Positions 26,214-27,259 of a DNA stretch of 64,000 bases are shown here, piece by piece; within the stretch, counting starts at the first letter, position 1; each line of letters starts with the position of its first letter. The notes below the pieces were generated by a model. The model saw nothing but the letters and a program-made list of their open reading frames with translations. It had not been told where the DNA came from and made no database searches. The stretch is from Escherichia virus TH10: sequence record MT446388.1. One strand, given 5' to 3'. Both the position numbers and the translations under genes were made by a program.

Positions 26214-26654
26214 TTAGAAAGGTTTTCTGCGTTGCTTGTTAATGTTAGCTTTCATAGCAGCTAAGTGGTTTTGCTGTTCAATTAGTCGTGAACGTTCTTG
26301 GTGGCTAAGTGCCATAGTGTTCACATTCTCAATCGCTTGAGTGGCTTGCTTTAAAGCACGACCAATCTTACCAGACATTTTACGTTTTGCAATAGTTGCT
26401 TGATGCTTAGGTTCAACCACACGATAACCAACACCCATTGAAGCAACCAGATAAATCTTCTCTTCTTTAAGAAGCTTCTCAATAAACTTCTCAAGTCGGT
26501 TTAGACGTGTAAGCGCATAAGCCTTCATTTCATCTTCGTACTTAACAATGTCACCTTGATAAGTTGGTTTCACAATACCTAAGAAGGTATCCATCTCAGA
26601 ATGTGATACAGTGTCACCGTAACTAAACTTTGCTGCTAATGCTTTTGTATTCAT
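26214..26654 (-). CDS. hypothetical protein (cassette gene 2)
   Basis: 146-aa ORF, basic C-terminus, 3-nt spacing from upstream gene. Confidence 0.5.
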   Translation of the reverse strand: MNTKALAAKFSYGDTVSHSEMDTFLGIVKPTYQGDIVKYEDEMKAYALTRLNRLEKFIEKLLKEEKIYLVASMGVGYRVVEPKHQATIAKRKMSGKIGRALKQATQAIENVNTMALSHQERSRLIEQQNHLAAMKANINKQRRKPF

Positions 26655-26656
26655 AA

Positions 26657-27259
26657 TTAAACGTTACCTTCTGAAATAACTTCTACAGAAAAACGACCAA
26701 AGCGTGGACGCCAATCACCTACACCACAAAGGTTGCCAGCATTTTCAAGAACCATCAGAAGTTCCTCTTTGGTGATTTGCTCTTCATCGAACATCAAACC
26801 GAACTCTACAGACCAGTCACGGAAGATTGGACGGTAGCTCATAACTCGTGCTGTACCAATCTTAACAGACTTAGCATAGATGAAGTCTGGATTCTTAGCA
26901 AGTTCTTGTGGGTTTGCTGGACAGTTCTTAATAGTCATTGGGAAGACTACATCTGTCAGCATAATGGCTCGGTCAATTACCTTACCAAGTTTGTTGAGTT
27001 TTGCACCAGACTTGATACAAGCCTCAATCATCTCACCGTTCATAACAAAACCAAGTTGCTCATCGTAGTAACAAGAAGTTACCAGTTGACTTTCTGCTAA
27101 GAGCGCATAGTCTTCGTCAGTCTTTTTACGTTTACTGGACAGAGACTTGTGATATTTTGTCAGAGGGTTTAATGGGTCTGACAGCGTATCGTTATGGCTC
27201 AGGAAAGGACGAGTACCAGTGATTTTGATATTTAACAGTTTCATAGCATTTAGCTCCAC
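26657..27259 (-). CDS. hypothetical protein (cassette gene 1)
   Basis: 200-aa ORF with no motif I recognise; bracketed by repeat regions. Confidence 0.5.

What the first reader, a model, noticed from the sequence alone, without database searches (positions are those of the whole stretch)
26214..27259. Two-gene cassette of unknown function insulated by the repeat blocks
Genes 26657..27259 (200 aa) and 26214..26654 (146 aa) carry no motif I recognise. They sit between the repeat blocks, with a sigma70 promoter upstream and a strong terminator downstream, embedded in the early host-takeover cluster. That layout is typical of independently regulated accessory or anti-defence morons.
Basis: inference. 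Interest (0 to 1): 0.55.

Follow-up and report, generated by a model that had tools for sequence, protein, structure and literature searches.

The report
Phage VIPR RNA-guided silencing locus
The two "unknown" genes are the effector (Vipr) and helper (Vap1) of a VIPR system, a CRISPR-like RNA-guided DNA-silencing machine first described in 2026, and the flanking "repeat blocks" are its guide-RNA genes, aimed mostly at a parasitic satellite element of E. coli.

Summary
Two real, co-oriented genes on the minus strand sit between four blocks of 5-nt periodic repeats. The first gene starts at ATG 27244 (195 aa), not GTG 27259.

The function is known. The 195-aa protein is 97.9% identical to the SUSP1 Vipr protein (PDB 36pp), and every published RNA/DNA-contact residue I checked is conserved. 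My AlphaFold model hits only CRISPR RAMPs (Csm3/Cas7). The 146-aa protein is 99% identical to SUSP1 Vap1.

The "insulating" repeats are (GGYNN)n tracts on the gene strand. G2 and Y3 are near-invariant and NN is near-random. Each tract ends in a covarying pseudoknot tail, so these are vrRNA guide genes.

Decoded with the published 1-nt-skip rule, three of the four guides match an ~11-kb satellite island (tape-measure gene, a 236-aa gene and its upstream region, and a regulatory region). Other skip rules, shuffled guides and chromosomal flanks do not match. Guide D has no target found.

The locus is accessory: about half of Felix O1-like phages carry it. It is therefore a type II VIPR locus of the SUSP1 clade, already described in two 2026 preprints.

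Small additions here: a guide that looks bipartite, conserved hairpins before each tract, and orphan guides in relatives whose locus lacks vipr.

The parts
27659..27686 (-). Strong sigma70-like promoter (TTGACA-16-TATACT) upstream of the upstream vrRNA array; likely start of the locus transcript
   Evidence: 11/12 match. The same position precedes the single orphan tract in Felix O1. Function inferred.
27595..27623 (-). Leader hairpin 1 (CUUAAGAGUCUUCUAAGAGGGUUUUUAAG), immediately 5' of vrRNA A
   Evidence: -11.7 kcal/mol, z -2.6; 14-bp stem with G.U pairs valid only on this strand. Conserved before tracts in relatives.
27497..27596 (-). vrRNA A repeat tract: 19 GGYNN-type units plus GGGTA junction. 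The 5' units have a degenerate G1, and there is an internal 30-nt duplication
   Evidence: Identical tract in phage ASO1B. The two halves match different satellite genes under the 1-nt-skip rule.
27459..27496 (-). Tail type T1 of vrRNA A: GUUAGUCUCAGCUACAUUAAAAUGAGACUUACC + U5. Hairpin AGUCUCA/UGAGACU with a possible GUAG:CUAC pseudoknot; annotated as a rho-independent terminator in ASO1B
   Evidence: -12.5 kcal/mol.
27433..27460 (-). Leader hairpin 2 (UUAAAAGGUCUUUAAGAGGGUUUUUUAA) before vrRNA B
   Evidence: (family D3).
27350..27429 (-). vrRNA B repeat tract: 15 units plus GGGTG junction
   Evidence: identical in KhF3. 8 consecutive NN units match a satellite intergenic site.
27321..27349 (-). 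Tail type T2 of vrRNA B: H-type pseudoknot GUGG..GGUAG..CCAC..CUACC; identical to the tail of SUSP1 vrRNA1
   Evidence: 4 of 9 pairs with compensatory changes, 96% of cells paired versus 26-48% when slid.
27286..27314 (-). Hairpin 3 of the leader type (UAAAGAGUCUUCUGUUGAGGGUUCUUUA), between the vrRNA B tail and vipr and not followed by a tract
   Evidence: (D6).
27260..27289 (-). Weak sigma70-like promoter (TTTACA-18-TAAAGT) directly before vipr
   Evidence: 9/12; annotated as a promoter in ASO1B.
26657..27244 (-). vipr: 195-aa RAMP-fold protein, the RNA-guided DNA-binding effector
   Evidence: PDB 36pp 'SUSP1 Vipr protein', E 1.2e-79; pLDDT 95; top fold hits Csm3 / type VII Cas7 / Cmr4 / Cas6; 97.9% identity; H17 K33 R39 E71 M72 K82 G87 K88 R138 C173 D177 W178 R179 all conserved.
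26214..26654 (-). vap1: 146-aa accessory protein; compact N-terminal alpha/beta domain (weakly winged-helix-like) plus a long helical hairpin
   Evidence: 234 remote relatives; pLDDT 96; only weak WH-domain hits, E > 0.4; 145/146 identical to SUSP1 Vap1. vap1-like genes follow vipr in distant loci.
26180..26202 (-). GC-rich hairpin plus T-run after vap1 (intrinsic terminator-like)
26154..26181 (-). Leader hairpin 4 before vrRNA C
26086..26150 (-). vrRNA C repeat tract: 12 units plus GGGTA junction
   Evidence: same NN series in KhF3 and wV8. Matches a satellite regulatory region at 22/26.
26048..26085 (-). Tail type T1 of vrRNA C
26022..26049 (-). Leader hairpin 5 before vrRNA D
25949..26018 (-). 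vrRNA D repeat tract: 13 units plus GGAAG junction, with an internal (GGTTA GGTGG) duplication. No target found
   Evidence: no significant match; no exact hits.
25920..25948 (-). Tail type T2 of vrRNA D: pseudoknot AAGG..GGCAG..CCUU..CUGCC, with compensatory changes relative to the B tail

Best explanation
The region 25920-27686 (minus strand) is a complete type II VIPR (Viral Interference Programmable Repeat) locus of the SUSP1 clade, carried by a Felix O1-like phage.

Components:
- vipr (27244-26657) encodes a small RAMP-fold protein.
- vap1 (26654-26214) encodes an accessory protein.
- Four vrRNA genes flank them, two upstream (A, B) and two downstream (C, D). Each consists of a leader hairpin, a tract of 12-19 GGYNN pentamers and a ~30-40-nt pseudoknot tail.

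Mechanism, as shown for SUSP1 in the two preprints and inferred here from near-identity:
1. One Vipr protomer binds each pentamer, sequesters GGY and presents the NN dinucleotides.
2. The filament reads double-stranded DNA as NNxNNx..., skipping every third base, and forms an R-loop triplex.
3. The bound complex blocks transcription in a CRISPRi-like way, with no PAM and no cleavage.
4. Vap1 enhances the effect by an unknown route.

Specific to this window (my analysis): guides A, B and C are programmed against an ~11-kb satellite island found in about 9% of complete E. coli genomes. That island carries serine recombinases, a tape-measure gene and a Felix-like baseplate gene. The targets are:
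- A 3' half: the tape-measure gene.
- A 5' half: a 236-aa gene just upstream of the tape-measure gene.
- B: the region about 170 nt upstream of that 236-aa gene.
- C: an intergenic region about 150 nt upstream of a Dam-like methylase gene where one is annotated; it is rich in CTGTTAA repeats, so I read it as regulatory.

The phage most likely uses the locus to silence a satellite that parasitises it.
For: Protein identity:
- A profile of the 195-aa family hits PDB 36pp 'SUSP1 Vipr protein' at E 1.2e-79.
- It is 97.9% identical over 190 residues, and every contact residue named in the cryo-EM paper that I checked is conserved.
- The AF2 model has pLDDT 95. Its 45 significant PDB fold hits that I inspected were CRISPR RAMP-containing entries.
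- Vap1 is 145/146 identical to SUSP1 Vap1.

Guides:
- Four tracts lie on the gene strand only.
- Over 236 units from 18 tracts, position 2 is G in 99%, position 3 is Y in 100%, and positions 4 and 5 have entropy of 1.93 and 1.85 bits.
- The tails form an H-type pseudoknot. 4 of 9 pairs show compensatory changes, and 96% of cells are paired versus 26-48% in slid controls.

Generality: distant vipr homologues (a metagenomic phage contig and Rhodococcus globerulus) are likewise followed by a vap1-like gene and flanked by same-strand GGYNN tracts.

Targets:
- The longest perfect runs of NN units in 11 satellites under skip 1 are 9 (A 5' half), 9 (A 3' half), 8 (B) and 8 (C). These were reached by 0, 0, 1 and 0 of 300 unit-order shuffles.
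- Skip 0/2/3 and 135 kb of chromosomal flanks give at most 6.
- Hits recur at homologous sites in several satellites.
- No self-target reaches 80%.
- Positive control: SUSP1, wV8, ASO1B and KhF3 guides reach 20/20 in a 10-unit window only with skip 1.

Literature: small-RNA sequencing, RNP co-purification, GFP silencing, lambda defence, the vap1 enhancement and satellite targeting for SUSP1; the structural mechanism.
Against: - Nothing was measured for this phage. Expression, processing and activity of its vrRNAs are inferred from a 98-99% identical system.
- The best natural matches are imperfect: 81-85% of NN for A 3' and C, and only 8 of 15 units for B. BLAST with 'idealised' targets found no better variant among 5,426 E. 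coli genomes.
- Guide D has no detectable target.
- Tract A has 19-20 units, outside the published range of 9-16.
- The skip base falls on the wobble position for the A 3' target but on codon position 1 for the A 5' target.
- The DNA-binding role of Vap1 rests on weak fold hits only.
- The supporting literature is two preprints from one group.
Confidence: 0.93

Rival explanations
1. Anti-defence or accessory 'moron' of unknown function. The two proteins counteract a host defence system, and the repeats merely insulate the cassette transcriptionally.
For: - Variable presence among relatives.
- Promoter-like and terminator-like signals of its own.
- No Pfam, NCBIfam or PADLOC hit.
Against: - The proteins are near-identical to the experimentally characterised Vipr and Vap1.
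- The repeats have the exact GGY/NN grammar, strand and tails of vrRNAs.
- Their variable dinucleotides match satellite DNA, not host defence genes.
Confidence: 0.03
2. The repeat blocks act at the DNA level, as iterons, an origin, partition sites or bent DNA bound by the two proteins. The KhF3 record, for example, annotates 'possible binding site of StbAB'.
For: - 5-nt and 10-nt phasing of ACC/GGT resembles phased protein-binding or bending sites.
- Vap1 has a weakly winged-helix-like domain.
- KhF3 annotation.
Against: - Conservation is strand-specific. The leader stems rely on G.U pairs valid only in RNA of the gene strand.
- The pseudoknot shows compensatory changes.
- Positions 4 and 5 are hypervariable, which is the opposite of a protein-binding iteron.
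- Vipr has the fold of an RNA-binding RAMP.
- Published small-RNA sequencing shows the SUSP1 tracts are expressed RNAs bound by Vipr.
Confidence: 0.02
3. The locus is a VIPR system but works mainly on RNA, binding or silencing transcripts as the type III CRISPR Csm3 backbones that it most resembles structurally do.
For: - The best fold matches are Csm3/Cmr4, which are RNA-targeting backbones.
- The cryo-EM paper shows the filament can pair with ssRNA.
- The A 3' guide-sense match lies on the strand opposite the tape-measure coding strand. On my reading of the geometry that would not pair with the tape-measure mRNA, so this adds no support for RNA targeting.
Against: - With ssRNA, most particles stall at 7 subunits and no triplex forms.
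- Published targets occur on both strands, and either strand silences GFP.
- The B and C targets here are intergenic and lie upstream of genes, which fits promoter or operator occlusion.
- No Csm3-type catalytic activity has been reported.
Confidence: 0.02

Closest known systems
SUSP1 type II VIPR system (Vipr + Vap1 + vrRNAs); bioRxiv 10.64898/2026.04.26.720920 and 10.64898/2026.04.26.720927; PDB 36pp
   Same: - Same genomic position, between the DNA ligase gene and the ORF87 homologue.
- Same gene order.
- Vipr 97.9% and Vap1 99% identical.
- Same GGY/NN grammar and the same two tail types.
- The vrRNA B tail is identical to the SUSP1 vrRNA1 tail.
- The same class of target, the satellite island.
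   Different: - Array layout is 2 upstream + 2 downstream here, versus 1 + 3 in SUSP1.
- None of the window's four guide sequences matches any of SUSP1's four.
- Tract A has 19-20 units (published range 9-16), and its two halves match two different satellite genes.
- None of this phage's guides has been tested.
Class 1 CRISPR-Cas backbone RAMPs (Cas7/Csm3/Cmr4; type VII Cas7)
   Same: - RRM core, glycine-rich loop and thumb fold.
- One protomer per fixed RNA period, forming a helical filament on a guide.
- A periodic flipped base interrupts guide-target pairing.
   Different: - 9-17% sequence identity.
- No CRISPR array, no cas1/cas2 and no other cas genes nearby.
- The period is 5 nt with only 2 pairing bases, against 6 nt with 5 pairing bases.
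- Guides are genome-encoded tandem repeats, not acquired spacers.
- The outcome is silencing by binding, not cleavage.
Phage-encoded CRISPR-Cas of Vibrio phage ICP1 targeting the PLE satellite (from my own knowledge; not checked with the tools)
   Same: A lytic phage carries an RNA-guided system whose guides are directed at a chromosomal satellite that parasitises it.
   Different: ICP1 uses a full type I-F CRISPR-Cas with spacer acquisition and target degradation. The system here has two small genes, fixed guides and, as far as is known, only transcriptional silencing.
dCas9/dCas12 CRISPRi (functional analogy only)
   Same: Programmable RNA-guided binding of dsDNA that blocks transcription.
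   Different: - Unrelated protein.
- Contiguous 20-nt pairing and a PAM requirement.
- Strand bias for silencing inside genes.
- VIPR has no PAM and works on either strand.

Membership tests
VIPR system, type II (SUSP1 clade) | Vipr protein: sequence homology to the characterised Vipr | tested here: met
   The family profile hits PDB 36pp_D 'SUSP1 Vipr protein' at E 1.2e-79 over the full length. 186/190 residues are identical.
VIPR system, type II (SUSP1 clade) | Vipr has a minimal RAMP fold (single RRM core, G-loop, thumb) | tested here: met
   AF2 model pLDDT 95.3, pTM 0.87. The 45 Foldseek PDB hits with E <= 1e-3 were, as far as inspected, Csm3, type VII Cas7, Cmr4 and Cas6 entries. The C-terminal [12 protein letters not shown] glycine-rich loop is invariant in the family.
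VIPR system, type II (SUSP1 clade) | Residues shown to contact GGY, the skip base and the non-target strand (H17, K33, R39, K82, R138, D177, W178, R179) | tested here: met
   All are present at the same positions.
VIPR system, type II (SUSP1 clade) | Flanking vrRNA genes: tandem YNNGG/GGYNN repeats on the vipr strand, with GGY conserved and NN hypervariable | tested here: met
   Four tracts of 12-19 units, on the minus strand only. G2 99%, Y3 100%, N4/N5 entropy 1.93 and 1.85 bits. Tract A exceeds the published 9-16 units.
VIPR system, type II (SUSP1 clade) | Invariable structured 3' tail with a pseudoknot | tested here: met
   Two tail types. The T2 pseudoknot has 4 of 9 pairs with compensatory changes and 96% paired cells, versus 26-48% in slid controls; only 3 distinct sequences were available. 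The T1 hairpin folds at -12.5 kcal/mol; its pseudoknot stem GUAG:CUAC was read by eye.
VIPR system, type II (SUSP1 clade) | vap1 accessory gene directly downstream of vipr | tested here: met
   145/146 identical to SUSP1 Vap1. vap1-like genes follow vipr in two distant loci.
VIPR system, type II (SUSP1 clade) | Guides match competing mobile elements under the 1-nt-skip rule, with no self-targets | tested here: met
   A (both halves), B and C match satellite islands; 0-1 of 300 shuffles reach the observed run, and other skip rules and flanks stay at background. D has no target. The best self-match is 62-73%.
VIPR system, type II (SUSP1 clade) | vrRNAs are expressed, bound by Vipr, and direct sequence-specific dsDNA binding and silencing | not testable with these tools
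   Shown for SUSP1 only.
CRISPR-Cas system | CRISPR array (direct repeats of 25-40 nt separated by unique spacers) | tested here: not met
   The repeat and tandem-repeat scans show only 5-nt periodic tracts plus leader and tail elements.
CRISPR-Cas system | Adaptation and effector cas genes (cas1/cas2, large subunit, nuclease) in the neighbourhood | tested here: not met
   The neighbours are the DNA ligase gene, small hypothetical genes, a regulator, frd and td. PADLOC finds nothing for either protein.
Anti-defence (anti-CRISPR / anti-RM type) moron | Small protein that inhibits a host defence system | not tested
   There is no homology to any catalogued family, and no anti-defence library was available. 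The positive identification as VIPR makes this reading unnecessary.

The most novel reading that the evidence does not exclude
The most novel reading the evidence does not exclude has three parts:
1. The 19-20-unit vrRNA A is a genuine bipartite guide, one RNA carrying two independent specificities. Its 5' half matches a 236-aa satellite gene and its 3' half matches the satellite tape-measure gene.
2. The conserved hairpin before every tract is the processing or boundary signal that defines vrRNA 5' ends.
3. The tract-plus-tail units retained by Felix O1-like phages whose locus lacks vipr, and those carried by satellites, are functional guides loaded in trans by the Vipr of a co-infecting or helper phage.

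None of these appears in the preprint text I searched.
Probability: 0.25. Interest if true: 0.55.

Novelty: already known. Interest (0 to 1): 0.45.

Why it matters
VIPR is a newly described, very compact RNA-guided DNA-recognition system: a ~20-kDa protein and a guide of about 100 nt, with no PAM. It is proposed to predate CRISPR.

Recognising it here turns two "hypothetical proteins" and an unexplained "DR_4 repeat" annotation, carried by over a hundred Felix O1-like phage records, into an interpretable phage-versus-satellite weapon. Several of these phages are used for typing and biocontrol.

The analysis gives this phage's guide repertoire and likely targets. Using only a handful of satellite sequences, it also reproduces the 1-nt-skip code and the satellite targeting from sequence alone.

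For annotation pipelines the lesson is concrete. No Pfam, NCBIfam, PADLOC or Rfam model flags this locus. Only the PDB sequence match and the literature identify it.

Tried and rejected
- **Family libraries.** Pfam, NCBIfam and PADLOC scans of both proteins gave nothing meaningful. Pfam on 54 Vap1 relatives gave nothing. PHROGs gave only 'unknown function' families.
- **Rfam.** Rfam 15 over the locus returned one chance hit below threshold.
- **Finding satellites by tail similarity.** BLAST of the downstream vrRNA region against E. coli genomes found nothing. The satellites were found instead through the Felix-like baseplate gene.
- **Better-matching targets.** BLAST with 'idealised' targets for A and C found no variant better than the ones already in hand.
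- **Guide D.** There was no significant satellite match. There were no exact 10-unit matches in IMG/VR or in GTDB species genomes. BLAST of the tract against phages returned nothing, but that result is uninformative because of the low-complexity filter.
- **Guide B.** A 10-unit exact pattern found nothing in IMG/VR. Its 10-unit-window score was only marginal (15-22 shuffles per 100-200), although the perfect-run statistic was significant (1/300).
- **Leader as promoter.** I considered and dropped the idea that the leader element is a sigma70 promoter. Its best -10-like hexamer lacks the A2/T6 consensus and was not called by the promoter scan.
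Full report
**Where the window comes from.** The window is from a Felix O1-like myovirus (Ounavirinae). The 1.9-kb region around the finding matches 230 phage records. The best is Enterobacteria phage KhF3 at 95.9%, followed by many Escherichia, Salmonella and Shigella Felixounavirus records at 90-94%. In wV8 and ASO1B the two genes are annotated 'hypothetical protein'. The flanking repeats are annotated 'DR_4', or as promoters and terminators.

**The observation.** Both ORFs exist on the minus strand. They have strong PHROG matches to families of unknown function. The upstream gene has 520 homologues. Orthologues are annotated at 588 nt, and the solved SUSP1 protein begins MKLLNIK. The gene is therefore 26657-27244, 195 aa. 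The repeat blocks, a terminator-like hairpin after the second gene, and promoter-like sites upstream are all present.

**What the proteins are.**
- Pfam, NCBIfam and PADLOC are silent.
- An alignment of 47 diverse homologues of the 195-aa protein shows an invariant C-terminal G.G....R...G.F loop and a conserved SKRKKTDED segment.
- Searched against PDB sequences, that profile hits one entry at E 1.2e-79: 36pp, 'SUSP1 Vipr protein'.
- The window protein differs from it at 4 of 190 aligned residues.
- An AlphaFold model (pLDDT 95.3) finds only CRISPR RAMPs among solved structures released before the Vipr entries. These are Csm3, type VII Cas7, Cmr4 and Cas6, at 9-17% identity.
- The 146-aa protein is 145/146 identical to the SUSP1 gene that the literature calls vap1.
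- Vap1 has 234 remote relatives of 140-200 aa. Its confident model (pLDDT 96) shows a small N-terminal alpha/beta domain followed by a long helical hairpin.
- Fold searches for Vap1 give only weak winged-helix hits or generic helical hits.

[quoted passage not shown] Vipr is a minimal RAMP found mostly in phages and prophages. It binds vrRNAs made of 9-16 YNNGG repeats followed by a structured 3' tail. One protomer sits on each repeat, sequesters GGY and presents NN. The filament pairs with dsDNA while skipping every third target base, forms an 'R-loop triplex', and represses transcription without needing a PAM. In SUSP1, small-RNA sequencing found one vrRNA upstream and three downstream of vipr-vap1. 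18 of 20 assignable guides of the clade target a satellite phage. Co-expression of vap1 enhanced protection.

**The repeat blocks are the guide genes.**
- On the minus strand the four blocks read as GGYNN pentamers: A 27596-27497, B 27429-27350, C 26150-26086 and D 26018-25949.
- No similar tract exists elsewhere in the window on either strand.
- I pooled 236 units from 18 distinct tracts of the window and six relatives. Position 2 is G in 99%, position 3 is a pyrimidine in 100% and position 1 is G in 75%. Positions 4 and 5 are close to random, at 1.93 and 1.85 bits.
- Each tract ends in one of two tails. T1 (A, C) is a 7-bp hairpin followed by a U-run. T2 (B, D) fits an H-type pseudoknot.
- In the T2 pseudoknot, the B tail, the D tail and a satellite-borne copy differ by compensatory changes in 4 of 9 pairs. 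96% of cells are paired, against 26-48% when the partner is slid. Only three sequences were available.
- The B tail is identical to that of SUSP1 vrRNA1, whose 3' pseudoknot was seen by cryo-EM.
- Two remote vipr homologues, in a metagenomic phage contig and in Rhodococcus globerulus, are also followed by a vap1-like gene and flanked by same-strand GGYNN tracts. The association therefore holds far beyond this clade.

**What the guides target.**
- *Finding the satellite.* The preprint supplement says the satellite shares a baseplate protein with SUSP1. I used that gene to find the island in 474 of 5,426 complete E. coli genomes. It is about 11 kb, integrated at several chromosomal sites. It carries serine recombinases, a Dam-like methylase, small ORFs, a tape-measure gene and the baseplate gene.
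- *Scan.* I scanned 11 copies (129 kb) with each guide's NN series under skip rules 0-3.
- *Result.* Under skip 1 the longest perfect runs were 9 units (A 5' half), 9 (A 3' half), 8 (B), 8 (C) and 5 (D). Of 300 unit-order shuffles, 0, 0, 1, 0 and 241 reached those values. Other skip rules and 135 kb of chromosomal flanks never exceeded 6.
- *Sites*. The A 3' half matches the tape-measure gene; the skip bases fall on wobble positions and 21 of 26 bases match. The A 5' half matches a 236-aa gene just upstream of the tape-measure gene; 19 of 20 match and the skip falls on codon position 1. B matches an intergenic site about 170 nt upstream of that 236-aa gene, identical in four satellites. C matches an intergenic region rich in CTGTTAA repeats, about 150 nt upstream of the methylase gene where one is annotated; 22 of 26 match.
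- *Controls.* Guides of SUSP1, wV8, ASO1B and KhF3 reach 20/20 in a 10-unit window only under skip 1. No guide matches the window itself above 73%.
- *Limits.* D has no target in the satellites, IMG/VR or GTDB species genomes. BLAST with idealised A and C targets found no better natural variant.

**Distribution.** tblastn finds vipr in 129 phage records. 117 are Ounavirinae at >= 92% identity, and 68 of those are >= 99%. About 230 records share the flanking ligase and ORF87 sequences. About half of the relatives therefore carry the locus. Felix O1 has neither gene at this locus. The proteins are nearly invariant while the guides differ between close relatives. Window guide A equals ASO1B's. 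B equals KhF3's. C has the same NN series as KhF3's and wV8's. D is unique among the seven loci compared. This looks like cassette shuffling.

**How it most likely works here.**
- *Shown by sequence.* The gene and guide layout, conservation of the contact residues, the tail structure and the target matches.
- *Taken from the SUSP1 experiments.* Expression of the vrRNAs, RNP assembly, gapped dsDNA recognition, silencing, and enhancement by Vap1.
- *Inferred.* Transcription starts at the strong promoter at 27686-27659 and runs leftward through A, B, vipr, vap1, C and D, with a weak internal promoter before vipr. Partial termination or processing occurs at the hairpins. The biological role is repression of satellite late or structural and regulatory genes during infection of satellite-bearing hosts.

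**Rivals.**
- An anti-defence moron of unknown function is made unnecessary by the positive identification.
- A DNA-level role for the repeats (iterons or partition sites, as one record annotates) conflicts with three results: the strand-specific G.U-containing stems, the compensatory tail changes and the hypervariable NN positions.
- Predominant RNA targeting is disfavoured by the published stalling on ssRNA and by the intergenic position of the B and C targets.

**Novelty and score.** The locus is a near-identical orthologue of the system characterised in the preprints. A Vipr 100% identical to the window's is present in long-public genomes such as wV8. The finding is therefore already known, although only from two 2026 preprints and invisible to standard annotation libraries.

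Things I did not find in the preprint text (for the search terms):
- The apparently bipartite 19-20-unit guide A.
- The hairpin conserved before every tract, and once before vipr.
- Orphan tract-plus-tail units in relatives whose locus lacks vipr. One of them (BPS17S6) matches the satellite at 19/22.

I score interest at 0.45. The system is remarkable, but this instance adds detail rather than a new principle.

Noticed in passing
window 27595-27623, 27433-27460, 27286-27314, 26154-26181, 26022-26049 (minus strand): A conserved ~28-nt hairpin precedes every GGYNN tract, and a fifth copy sits between the vrRNA B tail and vipr. The two sequence versions are UUAAAAGGUCUU-UAAG-AGGGUCUUUUAA and CUUAAGAGUCUUC-UAA-GAGGGUUUUUAAG. 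The stems contain several G.U pairs, so the structure works only in RNA of the gene strand. I found no mention in the preprint text under the search terms 'processing', 'RNase' or 'biogenesis'. It may mark vrRNA 5' boundaries or be a processing site.
   Followed up: partly
window 27497-27596 (vrRNA A); targets L019 7996-8024 and L011 11554-11612: Tract A has 19-20 units (published range 9-16) and contains a 30-nt internal duplication. Its 5' and 3' halves each match a different satellite gene with 9 consecutive perfect NN units. It may be a bipartite or fused guide. The identical tract occurs in phage ASO1B.
   Followed up: partly
L004 (Felix O1) 709-800; L005 (BPS17S6) 715-935: Felix O1-like phages whose ligase-ORF87 interval lacks vipr and vap1 still carry one (Felix O1) or two (BPS17S6) complete leader-tract-tail units at the same locus. 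One BPS17S6 orphan matches the satellite at 19/22 NN bases. They may be remnants of a deletion, or guides used in trans. I did not check genome-wide for a vipr copy elsewhere.
   Followed up: partly
L012 5054-5123 (minus strand), satellite in E. coli GN4751: A satellite island carries its own 13-unit GGYNN tract with a T2-like tail (GUCG..CGAC replaces GGUAG..CUACC), but I saw no annotated gene there resembling vipr. This agrees with the preprint's remark that some satellites encode vrRNAs. It implies the satellite borrows the helper phage's Vipr.
   Followed up: partly
L014 4137-4700 (Rhodococcus globerulus): Five GGCNN tracts lie downstream of a distant vipr-vap pair. Four of them are followed by a conserved tail containing GGTTCGATTCC, a tRNA T-arm-like motif next to a GC-rich stem. 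This may be a tRNA-like processing signal.
   Followed up: no
L008-L012 and L016-L021, for example L008 2500-14350: The targeted ~11-kb island is present in 474 of 5,426 complete E. coli genomes and sits at several integration sites: yciI/tonB, DUF72/yecD, ymdF/wrbA and lafU/dinB. It carries one or two serine recombinases, a Dam-like methylase, an HNH gene, a tape-measure gene and a Felix-like baseplate gene (74-85% nt identity to SUSP1). There is no capsid gene. It looks like a distinct family of tail-gene-bearing satellites of Felix O1-like phages.
   Followed up: partly
window 25873-25919: A 19-nt inverted repeat (AAATAAGCTATAACACCTG / CAGATTTTATAGCTTATTT) brackets the -35 TTGACA of the promoter for the next operon downstream of vrRNA D. 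It is operator-like and is conserved in Felix O1 and its relatives.
   Followed up: no
window 25444-25827 (minus strand): The first gene downstream of the locus encodes a 127-aa protein with an N-terminal signal-peptide-like segment (MKKILLAAAMVMAMNLPVNA). It is annotated 'hypothetical' in all relatives.
   Followed up: no
The cryo-EM preprint names 'T175' as part of the pyrimidine pocket. Residue 175 is V both in the PDB SUSP1 sequence as aligned here and in the window protein. This is probably a numbering or typographical issue in the preprint.
   Followed up: no
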